Assembly: GCA_044892525.1 (NCBI GenBank)
Contig: CM097885.1
Span: forward strand, 5,210,001-5,274,000
Length of the DNA stretch: 64,000 nt
From: Schmidtea polychroa
Lineage: Eukaryota
Direction: 5' to 3'
Positions 1-47,991 of this stretch are shown here, piece by piece. The notes under the pieces were generated by a model. It did no database searches. It was not told the DNA's origin and saw nothing but the letters and a program-made list of their open reading frames with translations. The stretch's first letter is position 1. Each line of letters begins with the position of its first letter. The position numbers and the translations under genes were made by a program.

Positions 1-499
1 TTTATCAGTTTAAATGTAATGGGTGTAATGTCACATACATTGGAGAGGATTCCCGTCATCTCTGTATTCGAGCTCGATAGCATTGTAAACCGAAGGCTTT
101 GACCCATATTGGTGAGCACAATAAGGGCTGTAAGATTAAAATAGGTATGTCTGATTTTAAAATTTTATTAAAAAATTTTGATAATTATTGGGAACGTGTG
201 ATTTGTGAGGCGTTGTTGATAAAATCATTGAATCCGAAAATTAATGTGCAGAATGCAGTGAATACTTGTATTTTAAATGTTTTTAAATAATTTTTTTTCT
301 TGTATATTGCATGTATTGATTGTTGTGTTAAATTAAATAATTAATAAAATTTTTTAAATTATTAAATATAAAAGTTTTTATAAAATTAATAAATTTGTAT
401 AAAATCCTTAATTTACATAGTTATTATATCCCACCTGATGATGACAGGAAAACTGTCGAAATATATCGTGAAAAGAATGTTTGATTGGCGTTATCTTAT

Positions 500-505
<6 letters not shown>
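1..505 (+). mobile_element. Penelope-like retroelement 3' end: GIY-YIG endonuclease tail (stop at 290), AT-rich 3' UTR and hammerhead; runs off the left edge
   Basis: Translates YQFKCNGCNVTYIGEDSRHLC..HIGEHNKGC..ERVICEALLIKSLNPKINVQ, the PLE GIY-YIG motif set. Near-identical to 32355-32837 plus 33971-34049. A TAG near 78-80 interrupts the frame. Confidence 0.9.
432..470 (+). ncRNA. minimal type I hammerhead ribozyme
   Basis: cac-CTGATGA-t-GACAG gaaaa CTGTC-GAAA-tata-TC-gtg: both catalytic boxes, 5-bp stem II, palindromic short stem III, stem I cac/gtg. Lies in a Penelope 3' UTR. Confidence 0.85.
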
Positions 506-782
<277 letters not shown>

Positions 783-9864: not shown

Positions 9865-11425
9865 AATTTTATAACACACACCTTTAATAATTTTCTTTTT
9901 GATATATGAAAATTAAAACCGTACATTCAAATTACGGAAAGCTAGAATGTTTATTCAAAATATTGATCAGGCAGATAAAGGCTGCTATTTCCAATTAAAT
10001 TGGAATCTTGAATGCCCTGACCCAGGGGCTCATCAATACCTTCATGTATGTCAATATAGCCCGGTTTTGAAAATCCAGAAATCATCGTAGCATGAGACAG
10101 CTGCTCCCAGGCAGAGTCAACCCAATCAATCAAAACATCTCTTTGGGTAACTTTTGCTTTGAATATGCCTTCATTTGCTTCCATATCCGTTCTTAATTTT
10201 TCAGACCACATTGTTCTTAGGTGCGATTTAAACGGTTTATTCCAGCTAACATGTGCAGGCTGGCAAACTGATGTAAAACCAGATGGAATCTTCATCAATG
10301 TAATATTAAGGATATTTGCAGCGGCTAAAACATCGCTTGTCCAGTGTGCTGTAAAGTCATCCAATAATAAAATCTTTGGCTTCTCCACATTGTCGGAAAA
10401 ATTATGATAAAGCCAGATAACCATCATATCGCTTGTAAACCAGCCATTTTGGTTGCAATATATTTGAGTCGTGCTGGTTTTCCAGACACAACTACCAAAT
10501 CCATGTTGATTAATTCTATCCTGCAACGATGATGCCTCCACAACTGATTGTTTACCCTTAAATATTACAAAAGGTGGTTTTTTCTGTCCCTTAGAAGATC
10601 CCAGCAATAATACTGATATCCTCTCTTTTTCTTTCCCAGCTGTTCGTATGAATATTGTCTTGGAACCTATTTTATCTAAGGTTTTTCCCGGGATTGTTTC
10701 ATAATTAACAGCCGTTTGGTCGGCATTCCAAACACAATCTACATTTAATTCAATCATTTTTTGTCGGACGTCTAATGCAAACTGAGTGGCTACCGGATTT
10801 GGAAGGACTATGGATGTTTGTCCTTGATGAGATTTGGCTCTGAGTGACAAGCCATATCTTTTCTTAAAGGTTTTTAGCCACCCAGTGCTTGCTAAGAAAT
10901 TATTAACATCGGTTTGTCTGCACGATAGGCGAGCTTTAGTACGAAGTATACTGTCGGTTACGGGGGCACCATTTTGGCGCAGGGTTCGGACCCAGAAAAT
11001 AAGTTCGTCTTCGACTTCAGATGAAAGACTCGAGGAAGTTCCTAGTGGTCGGATCTTTTTCAATTTCTTGACCCTATTCATATTCCCAAGTTTTGTTATT
11101 CGGTCTTTATTTTTTCTCCATTGATATATTAACTGTCTTTTGGCTTCACGAGCTGGCGATGATGACTTTAGATCAGGCCAAAATTTGGTAACTGTCTGTG
11201 ACGCACCATTTACATCATAGAAATCCAACACATTCTTTTTAAATTGTATCGTATATGCAGTTCTCATATGTGTTACTTCTACTGTGTGGAATCCTTTTGT
11301 AGAAATGCGCCCAGATGCATTCTTCTTACCCACCATGTTGGGTTTAAAAGTTGAGTGTTTTTAAAAATTAAAAAAGTATTGAACGATAATATTAAAGCCT
11401 GTGTGTTATAAGAAAATAAATACGG
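9865..11425 (-). mobile_element. pogo/Tc2-like DNA transposon embedded in (TAT)n
   Basis: Inverted ends TTATAACACACA..TTTAAT (9869-9888) and ATTAAAG..TGTGTGTTATAA (11391-11411). Right end TACGG followed by TA. Left tip is eroded into the microsatellite. Confidence 0.85.
9951..11336 (-). CDS. pogo-family transposase (CENP-B-type HTH + DDE_1), third catalytic Asp replaced by His
   Basis: 461-aa open frame: VEDELIFWV..FLASTGWLKTFKKRYGLSLR, WNADQT, LLLDDFTAH, CQPAHVSWNKPFK. Confidence 0.93.
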   Translation of the reverse strand: MVGKKNASGRISTKGFHTVEVTHMRTAYTIQFKKNVLDFYDVNGASQTVTKFWPDLKSSSPAREAKRQLIYQWRKNKDRITKLGNMNRVKKLKKIRPLGTSSSLSSEVEDELIFWVRTLRQNGAPVTDSILRTKARLSCRQTDVNNFLASTGWLKTFKKRYGLSLRAKSHQGQTSIVLPNPVATQFALDVRQKMIELNVDCVWNADQTAVNYETIPGKTLDKIGSKTIFIRTAGKEKERISVLLLGSSKGQKKPPFVIFKGKQSVVEASSLQDRINQHGFGSCVWKTSTTQIYCNQNGWFTSDMMVIWLYHNFSDNVEKPKILLLDDFTAHWTSDVLAAANILNITLMKIPSGFTSVCQPAHVSWNKPFKSHLRTMWSEKLRTDMEANEGIFKAKVTQRDVLIDWVDSAWEQLSHATMISGFSKPGYIDIHEGIDEPLGQGIQDSNLIGNSSLYLPDQYFE

Positions 11426-22251: not shown

Positions 22252-24445
22252 AATAAAAATAAACATGAAAAATAATTAATAATAAAAGCAATAGAAAATA
22301 AATAAATTATAATTAATAAATAATATTTTAATAATAATAATTATAATAAATAACAATAAATATTAATAGTAAAAATAAAAATAAATGGTAATAATCAATA
22401 AATATTAACAATCAAAATAATTATAGTAAATAGCAATAAATTATTTTAAATAAATTGTAATATTAATAATAAAAAATTATTTATAAATTTTAATAAAATT
22501 CTAATTCCTTCCCAATCAATAATATCCATCCTCTTTGTCAGCTGGATTATATGTAACATGTAAATTGGGAAATTCCTAACCGTCAGCTGTTCCTAAGCGA
22601 GATTGTTTGAAAAGTAATTTGCAAGATTTCATAATCCTCCGAAACGTTAAATATTGCACAAAATACACAATAATTATTGTCAATGCTAAAGGTCAACAGC
22701 ATCACTAAATCTACACTACTGGGATTATCGGTTACTAAGTATTTCAATTTCATTTAGCTTAATATTGTTACAAATTCGATTGTAATATTAGATAATAATT
22801 TTTTAATTACATTCAATAATTAGATTTGAAGTTTAAATAAGAATTTTGATTTTTTTAAATCAATTTAGAGAATTTTTATTGTAAAATTCATGAAATTTAT
22901 ACAATAATAAAAAGAATTACTTGCAATATATAATCTTCCGAAAATAAATCTTCACAAATTTGATTTATTCGCAAAATTTCCTAATTATAAATTAATACAA
23001 AAAAAAATTGTAGATAAGATAATTTTAAGTATTACACTTCTTTTTTTAGTGAAAACTTTTTCATTGTAATTTCCATGTTTCATTATTTTAAAAAGATTTA
23101 TTAGGTAACTCTCGAGAAATGAACTTATTGAATCAGCCATAATTGTAAGTATAAGATTAAGTTAAAATTTTATGATCTGACAGATTTTTAATTAACTTAA
23201 TCAAAATATGTTAAATGAAACCTGAAAGTTTTTTTACTAATAAATTAAATTATTTATAAGAATAAATTATCAAATTTGAATTTAGAATGATAAAGTGAAT
23301 AAGCATTATTAAAACACTACCTAAAAATAAAAAAAATATTTAGTGTTTCATTTTTAAATGAAATCAGTATTTGTTAATTATATATATTCGAATTTTTTTT
23401 CAATTTAAAATTAAAATGGTTTAAATTTAAGTATGCGCTTCAATTTGTCTTTTTGTCTTTAAATAAAGCTGAATAAAGTCTTTGAACATTTCTGGCGTTA
23501 TCTGAAATATAACCTCATTCAATACGAAAATATTTCTTGTGTCATGGACATAAAAATTTCACTGTTGATGGAATATAACTGTTTTTAAAAAATATGATTT
23601 TGATTCTTGAAAATGGAAATGAAAGAAAATCTATAACTGCTATGTTTAATTTTTGGATACGATAAAATGCTTAATTTGATAAAAAAGACTGATAGTAAAT
23701 GAAAGCCCCAATATCAAATAAAATGACAAATAACATAATGATTATAAAGTTATGCTACTCTTTGTAAGGGGTTTGTCGTTTTAATAAGATTAAATCTCTT
23801 TTAGATTTTAAATCAACATTGTACACTGGCTCCTTTAAAAGTATAAAACGTCAAGACTCACCGCAATGTAAATTATTTGATAATTATTTACAACATAAAG
23901 AAATCAAAATATGTATTAAAAGATCGCGAATTAGGTGTCGGTCATAGGGCAATTGTAATACATAGGTATAAAGAAAATTAATCTATAAAATTTTTTAACT
24001 TCTTAGTGCGATAAAGAATGAGAAACAAAATAACCATTTTGGTAAAGAATAAGTGAGGACACAAATAAATACAAAATATTGCATTATTTTGTTTTGAAAT
24101 AAATCAAAATTGTAATTAATTGTTTAATATTTTAAAATATGATGAAAATAAGTCAAAAACTTTCCAAAATTAATAAGGCAAGGGGAGGGGTAAAGATAAT
24201 TAATTATCCAAACCATTCAATAAATTAATTGACTTTATGAATTAAATTTAATTATAATAAAAGTAAATTTTGAATGTTTAAAAGAATATGAAATTCAAAA
24301 ATTTAAACAAAAAGAAAAGTAGAAAAAATAATTCTTTTTATTTGTAACTAATAAAAATAAAAACACAATATTAGATTATCTATAATTAAATAAAGTGTTA
24401 AATTTAGTTTTAATATTTAATTTTGTTATATAATTAGTTACAAAC

Positions 24446-26065
24446 ATGCCACCGAAATTTCTTACGAAATCCGAAAGAAAAATAGTTCAAGAAGCAGAAG
24501 ACCGCGAATTGATCGGTTGTATCAAACTTAGCCATAAGTTTGTCAATAAAACCGAAGATCAAAGCGCACCAATGACATCTTTCGCAATTGAAGATTTGAA
24601 CATGACAATCCTTGAAAAGGATTTGTTCAGAAATTCATCAATCACTATTGAACAAGGCAAAAGATATGGTCTTATTGGAGGTAATGGGTCAGGAAAATCT
24701 ATCCTATTCAAAGCTATGCAGATGGGCTTATTCGACTTCCCAAAAGATTACACGATTGGAATTGTCGAAGAAGAATGTCTTGCTGATGGAACTAAAGTAG
24801 TTGAATGTTTCGTTCCTAAAGCCGAAGTAGATGATTTCATGATTACATTTGCCGATGTAAAAAGTAGAGCTGTCAATAAAAAAAATAAGGACATTGAAGT
24901 CCCAAAATTATTAACTGTCTTAGACGGTATGGGTTTCACTCCTGAAAAAATGACTGATCACGTTGGTAATTTATCTGGTGGTTGGAGAATGAAGATTAGT
25001 TTAGCCACTGTTCTGATGGCGGAACCAGATCTTTTACTTTTAGATGAGCCAACTAACATGTTGGACGATAGAACTATTCAATGGTTGTCGGGATTTTTAA
25101 AAGAATGGAAGACTAATTTGTTTTTCATTTCTCACGACAGAGGATTTTTATCAAACGTTGCAACTGATTTATTATCGATTGAAAATAAAACTGTCGTACA
25201 TTATGCTTGCAAATACTACGAATGGTTGAGGAATCAAGAACTCGACAGAGAAAATGTTCGTAAACAAATTGAAGAACAAAAGGCATTAAAAGCTGAAATG
25301 ATGGAGTACATTAAAAAGTTCGAAAAGACAAAAAAGAAAGAAGTCGCTGCTAAAAGACTGGCTATTAAAAATCTTCCCGTAATTGATGAGAGTATTCTAG
25401 AACCGAGAGAAATCTGGAGATTTCCCGCTTGCTTGAAAATCAAGTGCGCTACAATTGAAACGAATGAAATGGGTTTCAGTTACTCGCATACCAAAGAAAT
25501 TTTAAGAAACATAACTTTGCGTGTTGAACCAGATTCTAAAATCTGCATTCTCGGAGACAACGGTTGCGGTAAAACTACTCTGTTGAAGTTATTCATGAAG
25601 ATCCTCAAACCCTCAAATGGAAACATGTTCTTGAATGATAAAACAAATGTCGGCTACTTCAGCCAGCATTACGTCGACCATTTGGAAATGGATAAATCAG
25701 CCATTGAAATTATGCAAATGAGAATCCCGAACTGCAAACTCGAAACTTATCAAAATCATTTGGTAAAATTCGGAATCACAAGTGAGGATTGGAACATTCC
25801 CGTTAGATGTTTATCATCGGGACAAAAGTCAAGAGTAGCTTTCTCAATCATTTATATGCAAAAGCCAAACTTTTTGATTTTTGACGAACCTACCAGTCAT
25901 TTGGATAAAGATGGAACTGAAGCTTTGGAAGATGCTTTGAGGAAATTCAAAGGAGGGGTCATTATTGTTACTCACGACGGCCGTTTGATGACAAACGTTT
26001 GTAACGATTTATGGTACATCCAGAACAGAACTCTATCAACTATTAAGGATGGTTGTTTGATGTAA
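24446..26065 (+). CDS. ABC-F family ATPase (two NBDs, no transmembrane domain), intronless
   Basis: GGNGSGKS / LSGGW / LLLLDEPTN / ISHDR, linker, then GDNGCGKT / LSSGQ / LIFDEPTSH / VTHD. AATAAA at about 26095. Confidence 0.95.
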   Translation: MPPKFLTKSERKIVQEAEDRELIGCIKLSHKFVNKTEDQSAPMTSFAIEDLNMTILEKDLFRNSSITIEQGKRYGLIGGNGSGKSILFKAMQMGLFDFPKDYTIGIVEEECLADGTKVVECFVPKAEVDDFMITFADVKSRAVNKKNKDIEVPKLLTVLDGMGFTPEKMTDHVGNLSGGWRMKISLATVLMAEPDLLLLDEPTNMLDDRTIQWLSGFLKEWKTNLFFISHDRGFLSNVATDLLSIENKTVVHYACKYYEWLRNQELDRENVRKQIEEQKALKAEMMEYIKKFEKTKKKEVAAKRLAIKNLPVIDESILEPREIWRFPACLKIKCATIETNEMGFSYSHTKEILRNITLRVEPDSKICILGDNGCGKTTLLKLFMKILKPSNGNMFLNDKTNVGYFSQHYVDHLEMDKSAIEIMQMRIPNCKLETYQNHLVKFGITSEDWNIPVRCLSSGQKSRVAFSIIYMQKPNFLIFDEPTSHLDKDGTEALEDALRKFKGGVIIVTHDGRLMTNVCNDLWYIQNRTLSTIKDGCLM

Positions 26066-31514: not shown

Positions 31515-32837
31515 GAGTAAAGGGTATTTCGTAATCGATATTTATCTGACGATCATCAGGTCAATGGGGGAGGGAGGGGTGTTACTAAAAATAAGGCTTA
31601 TTATTCCTCCAGATTTTATTGGATTTGTAGGGTTTTTGATACTAAACCTAGTAACATAATTGGGCATAGGATTATTAATTACAATACTAGATAATAAAAT
31701 TTGAATGAACATACTAAGTGTGATGTCATTAATACAATAAATCTTGACAATAATAAAATATAAATAAACATAATAATCCAATGAGACTTTTATTTGGTAA
31801 AGCAAATTGTAATTGTAGAGTTACGGAAATAGTAGACTTCCCCCTAATACGTATGATAACTGGAATAATCCAGAATACTCTTGTAAAGGGTGACCGGTTA
31901 ATGAACCTACCAGTCGTCATTCTAGTGATGATATAGTGATTAATGATGCGTAAATGTTGCAGTAATAATACTAGAAACGGTTATTCAAAATCCTTTTTAG
32001 TAATTATGGTGAAAGAGACTGTTGACAAATTTATTAAAAATCCTAAGGATCCATGTTTGAGAAAATCTGGTTGTGATCTTGTTGAGATGTGTGAGTCTGA
32101 TGAGTTAAAATCTGGGTGTGATTTTGTTGAAGTGTGTGAGTCTGATGAGTTAAATAAATTAAATAGTGTGAGCAAGGATGATGAGCCTAAATTTGTGCTA
32201 GTATTGCGTACTCAGAAGGTTTTAAGGATTTTTAAGTGAAGATAAGAAAGCAGTTAGGGAATTTAAACTATAGGATAATGTCAACTTTATGGAAAGTACG
32301 CAATATGTTTATTAATAAGTCAAAAACTCCGGTTGAATTGTGTTCCGATCTCGTTTATCAGTTTACATGTAATGGGTGTAATGCCACATACATTGGAGAG
32401 GCTTCCCGTCATCTCTGTATTCGAGCTCGAGAACATTGTAGACCGAAGGCTTTGACCCATATTGGTGAGCACAATAAGGGCTGTAAGATTAAAATAGGTA
32501 TGTCTGATTTTAAAATTTTAATAAAAAATTTCGATAATTATTGGGAACGTGTGATTTGTGAGGCGTTGTTGATAAAATCATTGAATCCAAAAATTAATGT
32601 GCAGAATGCAGTAAATACTTGTGTGTTGAGTGTTTTTAAATAAGTTTTTAAATAGGTTTTTTATATTGTATGTATTGATTGTTGTATTAAATTAAATAAT
32701 TACTAAAAATTTTTTAAATTATTAAATTAAATTTTAAATGTTTAAATTTAAAAAAAAAATAATATATTTTTTTTATAAAATAAAAATTTTTTTTATATAT
32801 AATTAATAAATTTGTTTCAAATCCTTAATTTACATAG

Positions 32838-33945
32838 CTCATGAATCGTGAGCAACGTAATTATTTATTTGATTTCTTGCGTCCTCAGCACAATATGTTC
32901 AGTTATTTCACCAAACTTGTTGAACAATTTACCAAAATTTTGTTACCTCCAAATGATATCATTGAAAAACTTAATAAAGAATCTAAAAGCCCAGAAATAT
33001 TCATGAAAAATTGTAAATATCGTGTATCCTGGGATCGGTATCAGGAAAGGCAGCGTAAAAAGGAAATGGAGGCTGAAGACAAAGAAAGGGTTGCTTATGG
33101 ACAAATTGATTGGTATGATTTTTTTGTTGTGGAAATGGTAGATTATCAACCTAATGAAGTTGGAAACTTTCCCCCACCTACAATTCCAGAAGAGGTTGGA
33201 GCAAGAGCGATTGCTGAAGAAAGAGGAGAACAAGTTGTTAATAAGTGGATTGAGGATAATAAAACACAACAAGAAGAAGAAGTTGAGGAGGAAGAAGAGG
33301 AAGAAATTGAAGAAGAGAAAATTCGTCAAACTGGTGTTCATGGTGATAAGGAAAACGATGACATGGAAGTGGAAGACATGGAGGTGAGTGATGAAGAGGA
33401 AGATTCAATCCCTGCTCCTCCTCCACCAATGCCGCTTGGTTCAACTGGAACATTCAAACAGCCTGTTAGCGATGCAGCTAGAACAAATCTCATCAAACCG
33501 GAAGAAGTCCTCATTAAACCTTACGATCCGAAATCGAAATCTAAGAAACAAAATGATGAAGTAATTTATTTTCATTTTACTATGTTCCGTTTTTCAATTA
33601 TTCCAATGATATTTGCTTGTTTATTTGTCCGTTTCCATCCAGGTATTCCTGATCTCACCACTCGGCGATAACAAGAAGATCACGACGAGCCAAGCCAATC
33701 AGCACACTCTTGTCGGCCTATTGAATCCCTCGTGGCGAGAGCACCGAGACCGCAACACCAAGAACAAATCGCAAGAGGACACGCCGTTCACATCGGGCCC
33801 GAATGTCGATTACAATCTGAAAATGATGGCGGAGCGTCGAACGGATATATTCGGTATCGAGGAAACCGTAATCGGGCGGAAGGTAGGAGAGGAGGACGCT
33901 AAGAAGGGTGAGAAATATATCTGGGACGGTCACGCCGCGACACAG
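32838..33945 (+). pseudogene. SF3A1: internal fragment of splicing factor 3A subunit 1 (end of second SURP domain through Prp21-like region), one intron at 33561-33642
   Basis: LMNREQRNYLFDFLRPQH..YFTKLVEQFTKILLPP, AYGQIDWYDFFVVE, GNFPPPT, LISP, MAERRTDIFGIEETVIGRKVGEE, WDGH. Phase-0 GT-AG intron. N-terminal SURP1 and C-terminal ubiquitin-like domain not seen. Confidence 0.9.
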
Positions 33946-33975
33946 GAACCATTAATCTCTAGGCAATCCGATATC

Positions 33976-34016
33976 TCACCTGATGATGACAGGAAAACTG
34001 TCGAAATTAATCGTGA
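33976..34016 (+). ncRNA. minimal type I hammerhead ribozyme (second copy)
   Basis: tcac-CTGATGA-t-GACAG gaaaa CTGTC-GAAA-ttaa-TC-gtga. Confidence 0.85.
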
Positions 34017-34443
34017 AAAGAATGTTTGATTGGCGTTATCTTATAATTAAATCATTGCCATGTATGTTTAACTATTTAAACTATTTTAACTATTTAAAGA
34101 AATTAAAAAAATATAATAAATTAAAAAGTAATAATTAGAATAATATAGAAAAATTTAAAAAAATAGGATTTGAAAATCAAAATTGACACATTTATTGAAA
34201 TATTTAAATAACATATATAAGTGGTTATTGGAGGCTTTATTTAGAATATTTTCAAATATTTTATTACGCTTCTAGAAGCTAATTATAGAAGCTGTATAAA
34301 AAAAATTTAAAAATTTTTAGTTCGTGTCATTTCGAATTTATAAATGTAATTAAAAATTTTAAAAGTTTTTAGTAAAACAAATGAGAATTAAGAGAAAGGA
34401 AATAAAAGAAAGATTGAAAGGTATTTTGGGAAGAACATTGCTA

Positions 34444-34771
<328 letters not shown>

Positions 34772-35139
34772 TCAAAAATCCCAGGCTTTATCATTTATTT
34801 TATAATACAATATGACAATCCAACTAAAACCTTACATTCTAAAATTTTGAATCTTAATTTGTATCAATTTTGATGGCGATTTTTTTATTTATTTTGTTTT
34901 CTAATTTTTATATTTTTAATTAATTTCACCACCATAATGAATATAGGCGTTTTCAAAAATATTCTTTGTTGTTTCAGAGATTTTACTAAATAATTCCTAT
35001 TTAATTAAATCCTTATGTCATTTCAGGTAAGTTTTTTGCTAATTTAATTCTTAAATTTTTATCTTTTTGTTAATTTCCACTAACTACTTGGATGCAATGA
35101 AGAATTTCACATTTTTATAAAATATTCTAGTTTTCTACC

Positions 35140-45670: not shown

Positions 45671-46560
45671 CCATAATAAAAAATGTAAATGTATATGCAA
45701 GCAATTTTCAGCCTTTAAAATATTATTAAAACTACGATATTATTTTTATCTTTTAATATATTAATATATTTTTTGCACTCCATTCATTGGGATATTTTTG
45801 TAGATTACAAAAAATATCAGATAAATATCATTATTATATTACAAATGGTTTAACAAATAAAAGATTTGGGGTACAAATGCACCCCACTTAGGTGCGTGAA
45901 AATTAAAGTGCTCATCGTTCAGTATTACATTAAAATCTATTGAAAAAGCAAGAAGATTAGGTTTTCCTAATTTAATTAATTTCAAATCTTAATTTAATTT
46001 AAAAACCAATATTTATAATATGTTTGTTTATCTACATCAAAAAACATATTTAAAATATTGAAATTTCAAAAGTAAGAGGAAATAATTATTATTTATAATG
46101 ATGATTTATGAATGTTGAAAAACTTTGAAATATTTTAATAATTTCACAATAAAATATTTAATTGATTTATTTTCATAATTATTGATTTGAAACTTATTCG
46201 AATATGACAAAATATTTCAATTTTTAACAATTTCACAGATATTAATATTTTATTTATTTATTTATTTTACTACAAATTTTCACTTTCCCGATAATCCAAT
46301 TGTGGATCACTCCCAATATTTATAACCATAACGAGATCATTAGATCAAAGGCCAAAACCCCACAATTCCTGAATACTAATAACCCGTTTAGCGTTACCCA
46401 GTAAAATTTTATTCAAATCTTTGTTTATCTACATCAAAATACAAATTATAAATATTGAAATTGTAAACGTCAGAGGAAATAATTAATATAATAAGTATGA
46501 TTTATGATTTATGTTGTAAAATGTTGAAATATTTTGATAATTTTGTTAATTTTAGATAAA

Positions 46561-47991
46561 ATGTTTGCAAGCGTATGGGAAATGATGAAGAGGAATAAAT
46601 TTGAATTTGATAATGAAATCAGCAGTGAATTGATGTGCAGAATTTGCAAATGTTTAATGATAAAAGCTTGCCATGCTCCTTGCGGGTGTCGCTTTTGCTC
46701 TGATTGCATTGAGCATTATTTGGTTGGAAAAGATAAATTCTGTCCAGGAGCAGCAAAACATTGTGGAAAAAAAATGATAAATTTCAATAAGGATGTTTCT
46801 GAAGATCATGCGATCAATCTAAGGATTTCAGAAGTAATAGTGAAATGCCCAATGAAAAATTGTGAATTCAAAGATGAATTAGAGGTGATGGAGAGCCACA
46901 TGAGAGCATGCAACAAGCAGCCAATCAGGTGCCCGTTCAATAGGATTGGATGCGAAATGAATGATGTAGAGAAGGACGAAATGAAAGTCCATCTTAATGA
47001 GAACAATGATGGCCATAGCAAATTACTGATTGATCAAATCAGCAATTTGTGCAATGAGATGCAGGCAATGAGTGAGGAGAATGCCAAATTGCGGAAGGAA
47101 ATTATCAATATCAATGTAAAATTTTATTTATAATTAATTTAATTGATATTTGTGATTGTAGGTGAAATTGTGCAATATTGAAAGGAAAGAGGCGGAGAAC
47201 AGAGCAGAAATAGAAGAACTGAATGAGGAAATGGTGGCAGTGAAGAATGAGAATCGCTCATTGAGAATGGAGATGGAGACAAATATTGGATCGATCAATC
47301 TAGTTTGATTATTGATTTGATTTGTTATTGAATTTTTATTGATGCAAAGCAGATCAGACAGCAAATTGAGGTGATTGAATCAAATTGTCAACAGCAAATT
47401 GATGAGATGAAAGAGAATTGCGAGCAGCGGCTGCAACTGGAGAATGAAAAGGTGATTTATTGATTTATTGAAATACTTGAATTTGAGATTCAGTTGCAGC
47501 TTGAAATGGCGAAATGCGCCAATGAAATTCGGCTGATTGAAATAAAATTAGGAAATGAAGATTTTATAAATAACGGATTTTTTGAATGGGAAATTGATAA
47601 ATTATCACAACAAGAGAGAAATGAATGGATTTACAGCAAGGTATTTTATTCCGGGACAATCGGTTACAAAATGTGCTTGGCGGTGAAGTTTTGGCCAGGA
47701 GATGTAATTGGTGTTTGTTTTCAATTGGTGCGCGGAGAATTCGATGCTAAATTAGCATGGCCATTCAAATTTTGTGTGACAATTAATTTGATTGATCCAG
47801 GAAATGGAAACTGTTTTTTCAGTAGATTTAAAAAATATTCAGATAGTCCTAATGACCCCCGATGGAGTAAACCATCAAATGACAGAAATGATCCAATTTG
47901 CATTTATGATGATATCTCAATCAATTCAGCTGCTGCCAAAAATGATAAGTTGGTGCTCAAATGTAAAATTGAAAAGTTTAGAGACATTTAA
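46561..47991 (+). CDS. TRAF-family protein (RING, TRAF zinc finger, coiled coil, MATH); exons 46561-47115, 47162-47302, 47353-47451, 47494-47991
   Basis: CRIC..CGCRFCSDC..CP, CPMKNC..HMRAC, CPFNRIGC, FYSGTIGYKMCL, GEFDAKLAWPF. Three 42-50 nt phase-0 GT-AG introns. Start may instead be 46582. Confidence 0.93.

What the first reader, a model, noticed from the sequence alone, without database searches (positions are those of the whole stretch)
32820..34049. SF3A1 gene fragment captured inside a Penelope 3' end, directly upstream of its hammerhead ribozyme
Seen: the copy at 1-505 reads AATCCTTAATTTACATAG-ttatt-ATATC.CACCTGATGA. The second copy has the same two flanks but about 1.13 kb of SF3A1 in place of the few intervening bases, so the window holds both empty and filled alleles. 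The insert is sense-oriented, stop-free after splicing and keeps an 82-nt intron. It has an in-frame ATG (32841) behind the element's TTTACATAG, which resembles a splice acceptor, and its frame reads through the ribozyme to a stop at 34029. Known: this part of SF3A1 covers the SF3A3- and SF3A2-binding region but not SURP1 or the U1-contacting ubiquitin-like domain. Inference: capture came from DNA or unspliced RNA, possibly via ACA.AG microhomology. An RNA ended by hammerhead cleavage would carry the cargo, making it mobilisable and possibly encoding a truncated splicing factor.
Basis: partly seen in the sequence, partly recalled or inferred. Interest (0 to 1): 0.85.

Follow-up and report, generated by a model that had tools for sequence, protein, structure and literature searches.

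The report
SF3A1 gene piece inside dead Penelope copy
A 1.1-kb, intron-containing piece of a splicing-factor gene was copied once into the short spacer of a truncated Penelope-like retroelement next to its hammerhead motif, and it looks like a one-off repair scar, not a mobile or working gene.

Summary
Window 32836-33974 (1139 bp) is a gap-free 98.2% copy of part of a complete SF3A1-like gene lying 2.6 Mb away on the same contig, opposite strand. The 82-nt intron is included. It interrupts a 5'-truncated Penelope-like element (PLE) in the ~200-nt spacer between the GIY-YIG ORF and the hammerhead motif.

All 44 other PLE copies listed at this site are uninterrupted. The SF3A1 sequence occurs only twice in the 781-Mb assembly. 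So this is a single-copy event with no sign of mobilisation.

Both breakpoints are mid-exon in the parent. The junctions show 2-nt (AG) and 4-nt (ATAT) microhomology and a 5-nt loss, with no target duplication and no poly(A).

The best reading is one templated insertion at a single break in a resident, dead PLE copy. A DNA template is most likely because the intron is kept. Copying of unspliced pre-mRNA by a reverse transcriptase is the main rival.

The hammerhead is a PLE-type minimal motif, recognised by motif only; Rfam does not call it. Cleavage there would remove the chimeric ORF's stop codon. On the copy's branch there are 7 nonsynonymous and 6 synonymous changes, against 1 and 8 on the parental branches, which suggests relaxed constraint. 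Expression could not be tested. Interest is modest.

The parts
1..504 (+). PLE copy 1 (3' part, cut by the window start; 5'-truncated in L023): an uninterrupted paralogue showing ACATAG-TTATT-ATATC at the site. Its hammerhead loop reads UAUA.
31976..32835 (+). PLE copy 2, left part. It is 5'-truncated and matches positions 1954-2798 of an intact 2771-bp unit. It carries the broken C-terminal ORF with the GIY-YIG region (32236-32643) and the AT-rich pLTR spacer (32644-32835).
   Evidence: (GIY-YIG E 2.2e-4, 21.9 bits against a cut-off of 22.6)
32836..33974 (+). SF3A1-derived block, 1118/1139 identical to G000:C1:2642067-2643205 (- strand). Its first 2 nt (AG) and last 4 nt (ATAT) are shared with the PLE (microhomology).
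32841..33560 (+). Exon-1-derived coding part, from the internal Met codon of the parent. It holds the C-terminal 32 of 53 Surp (SURP2) profile positions plus PRP21_like_P, and aligns to human SF3A1 residues 185-373.
33561..33642 (+). Retained 82-nt GT..AG intron. It is spliced out in the parental mRNA contig of run X7.
33643..33970 (+). Exon-2-derived coding part, aligning to human SF3A1 residues 410-508.
33971..34078 (+). PLE copy 2, right part: the hammerhead motif plus the first ~92 nt of the PLE ORF (the 'tail'). It matches unit positions 2808-2915. Most genomic copies end at 34078.
   Evidence: (table 7)
33976..34016 (+). Minimal type-I hammerhead motif. Helix I is UCAC (33976-79) paired with GUGA (34013-16). 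CUGAUGA is at 33980-86, followed by a bulged U at 33987. Helix II is GACAG/CUGUC (33988-92 and 33998-34002). GAAA is at 34003-06. AUUAAU at 34006-11 is a self-complementary helix III. C17 is at 34012, so the predicted cut lies between 34012 and 34013. The PLE ORF start codons (33983, 33986) lie inside the core.
   Evidence: features compared with passages of PMC4209133
34027..34029 (+). TGA that ends the chimeric reading frame, 15 nt downstream of the predicted ribozyme cut.

Best explanation
This is a one-off templated insertion. A single break arose in the ~200-nt pLTR spacer of an already resident, 5'-truncated, solo PLE copy. The break lay at AG^TTATT^ATAT, 5 nt upstream of hammerhead helix I and 11-14 nt upstream of the PLE start codons. 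It was repaired by copying 1133-1139 bp from the SF3A1 gene 2.6 Mb away on the same chromosome. The template was most likely DNA, by microhomology-primed synthesis of the SDSA, alt-EJ or replication template-switch type.

The result is a dead-on-arrival gene fragment, a partial duplicate pseudogene. By chance it keeps an open frame. It has not been propagated.

Shown: the homology block, the retained intron, the mid-exon breakpoints, the microhomologies, the 5-nt loss, the single copy, and the truncated state of the host element.
Inferred: that the template was DNA, how the break arose, and that the fragment has no function.
For: - The block is 1118/1139 identical without gaps and includes the 82-nt intron.
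- Both ends fall inside exons of the parent...GRQFLTQ|LMNREQ inside SURP2, and ...SRQSD|MGGTARG.
- The junctions are seamless, with 2-nt (AG) and 4-nt (ATAT) microhomology. The PLE's TTATT is lost. There is no target duplication and no poly(A).
- The two junctions lie 5 nt apart in PLE coordinates. A single break explains this automatically.
- The donor is in cis on the same contig.
- The parental sequence right after the block is a G+C-rich palindrome-bearing stretch (GGGGGGAACGGCCCGCGGGG). A copying polymerase could have fallen off there (inference).
- There are only 2 genomic places for the SF3A1 sequence, and 44 of 44 other listed PLE copies are uninterrupted.
- The intron has no cover in the RNA-like run X7, while the spliced parental contig has depth 596. 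Unspliced template RNA is therefore not abundant (weak).
- On the chimera branch there are 7 nonsynonymous, 6 synonymous and 1 intronic change, against 1 nonsynonymous and 8 synonymous on the two parental branches. H->Y and V->F fall in the conserved WHDFVVVE motif.
- An open frame after 13 random exonic changes has probability 0.51.
Against: - The insert lies entirely within the transcribed region, so an RNA template is not excluded.
- It is sense to the PLE. That is a 1-in-2 coincidence under DNA repair but is required under RT template switching.
- The site is in the pLTR of a PLE family that looks active, with open frames of up to 873 aa and at least 3916 first-look candidates. The Anolis PLE enzyme cuts both strands at ATT motifs in its own pLTR (PMC11167929, main text read). 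Element-made breaks and an element RT are therefore plausible actors.
- With 7 of 13 changes nonsynonymous, the chimera branch is below the neutral expectation of 0.80 (P = 0.03, crude model). Either part of that branch predates the copy, or some constraint exists.
- Kilobase-long templated insertions from 2.6 Mb away are rare events. I did not document their frequency in this lineage.
Confidence: 0.6

Rival explanations
1. RNA-templated repair or capture. The break in the pLTR was made by a PLE GIY-YIG nuclease, or arose otherwise. A reverse transcriptase (PLE or other) was primed by the 4-nt ATAT match and copied an unspliced SF3A1 pre-mRNA from an internal site. The cDNA end then joined at AG.
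For: - The Anolis PLE enzyme cuts both strands at ATT motifs in its own pLTR and starts reverse transcription internally on RNA without homology to the target (PMC11167929).
- The site here (TAG TTATT ATAT) holds an ATT.
- Both ends of the insert are internal to the transcript, and the insert lies wholly within transcribed sequence.
- The family has many copies with long open frames.
- The insert is sense to the PLE.
Against: - The intron is retained, whereas the parental RNA contig is spliced and the intron has no cover in X7.
- The PAc enzyme needs an RNA motif in the first 172 nt of its own ORF, and SF3A1 RNA has none known.
- Variants that need two template switches, or a new insertion into a resident pLTR, must return within 5 nt of the departure point or delete the resident hammerhead and tail. 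These are extra coincidences.
- None of the other 44 copies listed shows such a capture.
Confidence: 0.2
2. One reading: a PLE that has captured SF3A1 exons as cargo, is mobilisable through hammerhead-processed RNA, and encodes a truncated splicing factor.
For: - The open frame of 368 codons starts at ATG 32841 directly behind a stop.
- The cargo sits where the PLE ORF normally starts, downstream of the pLTR spacer. A pLTR promoter is assumed from the literature scenario and could drive it.
- The hammerhead motif is intact.
Against: - The chimera is a single copy.
- The host copy lacks RT and is solo.
- It keeps only ~92 nt of the next ORF, less than the 172 nt needed by the Anolis enzyme.
- Ribozyme cleavage at 34012 would remove the stop codon at 34027.
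- SURP2 is truncated and conserved residues are changed.
- No chimeric RNA contig was seen, although the one RNA-like run that was laid seems to lack the locus.
Confidence: 0.05
3. Assembly artefact: the junctions do not exist in the animal's DNA.
For: The flanks are a very high-copy repeat. No listed contig bridges the left junction by 31 nt or more.
Against: - The insert differs from the parent at 21 sites, so it is not a mis-joined parental read.
- In runs X1 and X2, both letter sets occur at similar depth in the intron bubble: 54.7 against 49.3, and 186.9 against 158.4.
- In X1 and X2, contigs break exactly at 32836. In X5 and X7, one contig runs through both borders.
- An X2 contig (33727-34000) carries the right junction plus 26 nt of PLE.
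- X1 and X2 may be the assembly's own sample, so this support is not independent.
Confidence: 0.03
4. This is the true SF3A1 gene with PLE pieces in its introns.
For: None beyond the presence of two exon pieces and one intron.
Against: - The complete gene, with two Surp modules and PRP21_like_P, lies at C1:2.64 Mb.
- The spliced contig of X7 continues into that locus's flanks, not into PLE (table 7).
- Homology stops mid-exon on both sides.
Confidence: 0.01

Closest known systems
Templated ('filler') insertions at double-strand breaks and microhomology-mediated template switching (alt-EJ/TMEJ, SDSA, FoSTeS/MMBIR). These are named from my own knowledge; only the listing and abstract of PMC7165422 were seen.
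   Same: Seamless junctions with 2-4 nt microhomology. A few bases are lost at the break. The donor is copied rather than moved, lies in cis, and keeps its intron.
   Different: The length (1.1 kb) and the distance (2.6 Mb) are at the upper end of what I recall for such events. The break lies in a retroelement's homing region, so the element's own nuclease may have made it.
Penelope/Poseidon-type PLEs with a hammerhead at the pLTR-ORF junction, e.g. PAc of Anolis (PMC11167929) and the min-HHRs of metazoan PLEs (PMC4209133).
   Same: - RT plus GIY-YIG ORF, tandem units, and a short pLTR spacer.
- The hammerhead core overlaps the ORF start. The cut is predicted 27-30 nt after the two ATGs here, against 26 bp in PAc.
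- Genomic copies end in a 'tail' ~92 nt into the next ORF; in PAc, RT starts 111-118 nt in.
[quoted passage not shown]
   Different: This copy carries a host gene piece between spacer and hammerhead. Neither paper, in the parts I read, describes this.
Retroelement-mediated gene capture: L1 3' transduction and chimeric retrocopies, Pack-MULE and Helitron capture (recalled, not checked in a paper).
   Same: A host gene fragment is embedded inside a transposable element in sense orientation.
   Different: There is no sign of propagation (1 copy). The intron is kept, there is no poly(A) or target duplication, and the cargo is internal to a dead, truncated element.
Partial gene duplicates / unprocessed pseudogene fragments.
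   Same: An intron-containing partial copy with both ends mid-exon and a raised nonsynonymous share.
   Different: It is very short and precisely bounded, and it lies inside a repeat.

Membership tests
SF3A1 / PRP21 splicing factor (as a gene fragment) | PRP21_like_P domain and Surp modules; similarity to human SF3A1 | tested here: met
   PRP21_like_P E 1.5e-20 and Surp E 2.2e-6 (profile positions 22-53 of 53 only); human SF3A1 residues 185-373 (E 7e-55) and 410-508 (E 8e-26).
SF3A1 / PRP21 splicing factor (as a complete, working gene) | Two intact SURP modules and a C-terminal ubiquitin-like domain | tested here: not met
   The fragment starts inside SURP2 and ends at the equivalent of human residue ~515 of 793. 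The complete N-terminal part is at the parental locus. I did not locate the parent's ubiquitin-like exon.
Penelope-like element | A single ORF with RT followed by a GIY-YIG endonuclease | tested here: met
   The family's 873-aa open frame ends in the same GIY-YIG-bearing C-terminus as the window copies. Pfam GIY-YIG on the window copy gives E 2.2e-4, just under the curated cut-off. The RT motif ..YVDDIF.. is seen in copy 1. The RT domain itself was not run against Pfam. The window's copy 2 holds only the C-terminal part.
Penelope-like element | Tandem or partial-tandem units giving pLTRs; a 3' 'tail' reaching into the next unit | tested here: met
   Two hammerhead cores lie 2771 nt apart in L036. 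Pairs of hits 2771 nt apart appear. Most contigs diverge after window position 34078 (table 7).
Hammerhead ribozyme (minimal type I, PLE variant) | Core C3-U4-G5-A6-N7-G8-A9, G12-A13-A14, A15.1-U16.1 and H17 in the right order and spacing | tested here: met
   Read directly at 33980-34012. The 14-nt core was the search key for the 17 distinct copies, so its sameness there is by construction. The bases after it through GAAA and U-C are alike apart from a loop-II change in L008 and the helix-III loop of L023.
Hammerhead ribozyme (minimal type I, PLE variant) | Helices I and II; a small self-complementary helix III allowing dimers | tested here: met
   - Helix II has 5 bp and helix I has 4 bp here (3 bp in most copies). 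Both appear in the MFE fold.
- Helix III is AUUAAU. Copy 1, L038 and L040 read AUAUAU. Both forms are self-complementary.
- This matches the passages of PMC4209133.
Hammerhead ribozyme | Match to a curated covariance model (Rfam) | tested here: not met
   There is no hammerhead family at gathering score over the window, nor at E<=10 on 33900-34100. The 2014 paper needed a relaxed descriptor for these motifs.
Hammerhead ribozyme | Self-cleavage | not testable with these tools
   Published PLE min-HHRs cleave weakly, as dimers or with protein help.
Processed retrocopy (retropseudogene) | Introns lost, poly(A) tail, target-site duplication | tested here: not met
   The intron is kept. There is no poly(A) and no duplication, and 5 nt are lost at the target.
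Transduced or captured cargo of an active transposable element | The same element-cargo junctions at more than one locus | tested here: not met
   The cargo has 2 places in the genome, the parent and this copy. In one search, 44 of 44 other listed copies are uninterrupted. That search scores only the best candidates, so it is not exhaustive for the PLE flanks.
Microhomology-mediated templated insertion | Short shared bases at both junctions, a small deletion at the break, and the donor left intact elsewhere | tested here: met
   AG and ATAT are shared, TTATT is lost, and the donor gene is intact at C1:2.64 Mb.

The most novel reading that the evidence does not exclude
The break was made by the PLE's own GIY-YIG nuclease at its homing site in the pLTR. 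The PLE reverse transcriptase, which can start internally on RNA, then copied an unspliced SF3A1 pre-mRNA into it. The host exons landed exactly between the pLTR (a putative promoter) and the ORF start with its hammerhead. In a tandem array, such a copy could be transcribed from the element's promoter and carried along. That would be a first documented route of host-exon capture by Penelope-like elements.
Probability: 0.1. Interest if true: 0.7.

Novelty: new member of a known kind. Interest (0 to 1): 0.3.

Why it matters
As it stands, this is a clean, datable example of a kilobase-scale templated insertion with both donor and acceptor visible. It lies in the homing region of a very abundant PLE family that appears recently active.

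It matters mainly as a lead. If a full scan of all pLTRs in this genome found more host-derived inserts at this site, PLE nuclease and RT activity would be implicated in gene-fragment shuffling. The papers I could search do not describe that.

The side result may be of more lasting use. This family shares with the Anolis PAc element an ORF start inside the hammerhead core and a tail ~92 nt into the next ORF. Its helix III loop also switches between two self-complementary forms.

Tried and rejected
- **Rfam.** There was no hammerhead hit at gathering score or at E<=10 on 201 nt. The three weak hits (ceN53, DdR5, CRISPR-DR40) look like chance.
- **Expression.** No RNA holder is listed. Of the four runs laid, the RNA-like run X7 shows only the spliced parental mRNA. 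No contig listed for X5 or X7 carries the chimera's letters or junctions. In both, one contig runs through both homology borders with parental letters. Contigs show presence, not absence, so this is only a hint that those samples lack the insertion. It says nothing on expression.
- **Flank-age asymmetry.** I tested whether the right flank is younger than the left, which would have meant that insert plus hammerhead arrived together. The left flank is 92.5% identical to one intact unit, but 96-98% identical to its nearest relatives. The right flank shows 1-6 mismatches in 108 nt. The numbers are too small, so the idea was dropped.
- **A 216-nt insert in another copy's pLTR (L008).** It has terminal inverted repeats and TA flanks, so it is a small DNA transposon and unrelated.
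- **Ubiquitin-like exon of the parent.** Seven short downstream ORFs gave no Pfam hit. The exon was not located.
- **Earlier findings of this scan.** Nothing is on record.
- **Literature.** The listings for 'Penelope-like' with 'gene capture' (10 papers) and with 'transduction' and 'chimeric' (10 papers) show no title or abstract on host-gene capture by PLEs. Only listings were seen. Subscription journals are not covered.
- **dN/dS.** This was a crude site count without a transition/transversion model. The outgroup letters come from contigs of one run (X5).
Full report
**What is there**

The window is G000:C1:5210001-5274000 of a 781-Mb, AT-rich assembly. At 32836-33974 lies a 1139-bp block. 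It is 1118/1139 identical, without gaps, to G000:C1:2642067-2643205 on the opposite strand, 2.6 Mb away on the same contig.

The block translates to an SF3A1-like protein:
- Pfam finds PRP21_like_P (E 1.5e-20) and the C-terminal part of a Surp module (profile positions 22-53 of 53) in the first exon piece. It finds the end of PRP21_like_P in the second piece.
- Against solved structures, the two pieces align to human SF3A1 residues 185-373 and 410-508 of 793.
- Between them lies an 82-nt GT..AG intron (33561-33642), also present in the parent.

The frame opens behind TAG 32835-32837, has an ATG at 32841, and ends at TGA 34027-34029.

**The parent**

The locus at 2.64 Mb carries a long exon with a start codon, two Surp modules (E 9.6e-42, 2 stretches) and PRP21_like_P. 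The same intron and a further exon follow.

Both ends of the copied block fall inside exons of this gene:
- The left end is within SURP2 (...GRQFLTQ|LMNREQ...).
- The right end is at ...SRQSD|MGGTARG....

In run X7, one 1995-nt contig joins 33562 to 33646. It continues on both sides into the parental flanks, not into PLE sequence (tables 5, 7, 8). The parent is therefore the expressed, spliced gene, and the window copy is a fragment of it. I did not find the parent's ubiquitin-like exon.

**The host element**

The left flank (31976-32835) and right flank (33971-34078) match positions 1954-2798 and 2808-2915 of an intact unit of a Penelope-like element.
- The left flank carries the end of the element's ORF with a GIY-YIG region. 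Pfam gives E 2.2e-4, just under the cut-off.
- About 190 nt of AT-rich spacer follows.
- Copy 1, which ends at window 504, shows the RT motif ..YVDDIF.. further upstream.

The family is very abundant. There are at least 3916 first-look candidates for a 94-aa RT-proximal piece. All 150 scored are at least 92% identical to the query, with open frames of up to 873 aa (three such rows) and one of 1193 aa.

In a tandem array (L036), two hammerhead cores lie 2771 nt apart. The 873-aa open frame runs through the core (...HLMMTGK...), so the element's start codons sit inside CUGAUGAUGA.

Most contigs of all four runs diverge after window position 34078 (table 7). Genomic copies therefore end ~92 nt into the next unit's ORF.

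This is the layout described for the Anolis element PAc (PMC11167929, main text read):
- The hammerhead lies at the pLTR-ORF junction, with the cut 26 bp after the start codon.
- Reverse transcription starts internally, 111-118 nt into the ORF, which produces the 'tail'.
- The enzyme cuts both strands at ATT motifs, including in its own pLTR.

**The hammerhead**

Rfam does not call it. Read directly, 33976-34016 has:
- helix I, UCAC paired with GUGA;
- CUGAUGA, followed by a bulged U;
- helix II, GACAG paired with CUGUC;
- GAAA;
- a 6-nt self-complementary AUUAAU;
- C17 at 34012.

The core pattern occurs twice in the window, both times in PLE copies, against 0.21 expected. Helices I and II appear in the MFE fold.

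Among the copies printed, the helix III stretch reads either AUUAAU or AUAUAU. Both forms are self-complementary.

These traits are those given for metazoan PLE min-HHRs in the passages of PMC4209133 that I read: a short helix I, an unpaired base at the 5' end of helix II, and a small palindromic helix III. Those ribozymes cleave poorly and probably act as dimers. Activity is untested.

**Junctions**

Copy 1 reads ACATAG-TTATT-ATATC. Most other copies read AATGAG-TTATT-ATATC. The interrupted copy reads ACAT-[AG...SF3A1...ATAT]-CTCAC.

The parent reads ...ACCC-AG... on the left and ...GATAT-GGGG... on the right. So:
- AG (2 nt) and ATAT (4 nt) are shared between donor and acceptor.
- TTATT is lost.
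- Nothing is added.
- There is no target duplication and no poly(A).

The two junctions are 5 nt apart in element coordinates.

**Copy number**

The SF3A1 part has exactly two places in the assembly (2 candidates, both scored). In one search, by my reading of the table, 44 other places reach the end of the left flank. All 44 continue into the right flank after 5-13 nt. That search scores only the best candidates, so it is not exhaustive for the repeat, but for the cargo it is.

**Support from reads**

- In X1 and X2, contigs with the window's letters stop exactly at 32836.
- Both letter sets are present at similar depth in the intron region (54.7 against 49.3, and 186.9 against 158.4).
- An X2 contig (33727-34000) carries the right junction.
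- In X5 and X7, a single contig runs through both borders with parental letters.

This fits a real insertion present in one study's samples, which may include the assembly's source. It also gives a weak hint that the insertion is absent elsewhere.

**Age and constraint**

I used the X5 letters as a second parental haplotype.
- 14 of the 21 differences fall on the chimera's branch: 7 nonsynonymous, 6 synonymous, 1 intronic.
- The two parental branches have 1 nonsynonymous and 8 synonymous changes, plus 1 intronic change and 1 intronic site with three different letters that could not be placed.
- Two chimera changes (H->Y, V->F) hit the WHDFVVVE motif, which is conserved between the parent and human.

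The share of nonsynonymous changes is raised, but it is below the crude neutral expectation (P = 0.03). Part of the branch may predate the copy. An intact frame after 13 random exonic changes has probability 0.51, so the open frame is no evidence of function.

The PLE flanks are 96-98% identical to their nearest relatives. This is similar to the insert's ~1.2% own-branch divergence, so the order of events cannot be read from divergence.

**Mechanism**

A single break in the spacer, filled by copying the SF3A1 locus and closed through microhomology, explains the following without further assumptions:
- the adjacency of the two junctions;
- the 5-nt loss;
- the mid-exon ends;
- the retained intron;
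- the donor left intact in cis.

The G+C-rich palindromic stretch just after the block in the parent is a plausible place for the copying polymerase to fall off (inference).

An RNA template is not excluded, because everything copied is transcribed, and the site is a known kind of PLE nuclease target. It would, however, need a rare unspliced pre-mRNA. Models with two template switches during retrotransposition must return within 5 nt of the departure point, which I consider unlikely.

My confidence in each reading:

| Reading | Confidence |
|---|---|
| DNA-templated one-off repair | 0.6 |
| RT-mediated copying of pre-mRNA at a break | 0.2 |
| Misassembly | 0.03 |
| True gene with PLE pieces in introns | about 0.01 |

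**Against the 'mobilisable, protein-coding' reading**

- The host copy lacks the RT and stands alone.
- It keeps only ~92 nt of the next ORF, whereas the Anolis enzyme needs the first 172 nt.
- Cleavage at 34012 would remove the stop codon.
- The SF3A1 frame is out of frame with the element's start codons.
- SURP2 is truncated. From memory, not checked here, SURP2 is the SF3A3-binding module.

**Verdict**

It is a partial gene duplicate lodged in a dead PLE copy. It is of modest interest as a clean templated-insertion example and as a lead to test whether PLE nuclease sites collect host sequence.

Noticed in passing
L036 (G000:C1:111245001-111252500, reverse strand) and window 33976-34078: In this PLE family the ORF start codons lie inside the hammerhead core (CUGAUGAUGA). 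Units repeat every 2771 nt, and genomic copies end ~92 nt into the next ORF. This is the same layout as the Anolis PAc element.
   Followed up: partly
window 34006-34011 and 461-466; L038, L039, L040: The helix III stretch of the hammerhead reads AUUAAU in most copies and AUAUAU in others. Both forms are self-complementary, as expected if dimer pairing is kept.
   Followed up: partly
window 505-780 and 34400-34800; L038, L039 downstream of the tail: Long (ATT)n/(AAT)n microsatellites directly follow or lie near PLE tails. This fits the ATT cleavage preference reported for the Anolis enzyme.
   Followed up: no
window 32062-32154: There is a ~45-nt tandem duplication inside the PLE ORF (..SGCDLVEMCESDELK SGCDFVEVCESDELN..). 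It is shared with the nearest relatives of this copy.
   Followed up: partly
window 9951-11360 (-): A 469-aa open frame carries a Tc5 transposase DNA-binding domain and a DDE_1 endonuclease domain (a pogo/Tc5-type DNA transposon).
   Followed up: no
window 24434-26065 (+): A 543-aa single open frame carries two ABC_tran domains and ABC_tran_Xtn (an ABC-F-type ATPase).
   Followed up: no
window 46528-47991 (+): Two neighbouring open frames carry zf-TRAF and MATH domains (a TRAF-like gene).
   Followed up: no
L008 (G000:C2:177535960-177536175): A 216-nt element with terminal inverted repeats and TA flanks is inserted in another copy's pLTR spacer (a small DNA transposon).
   Followed up: partly
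sites 32924, 33176, 33332, 33446 and others: The parental SF3A1 gene differs at about 1% between the assembly and the sample of runs X5 and X7. Nearly all of these changes are synonymous.
   Followed up: partly
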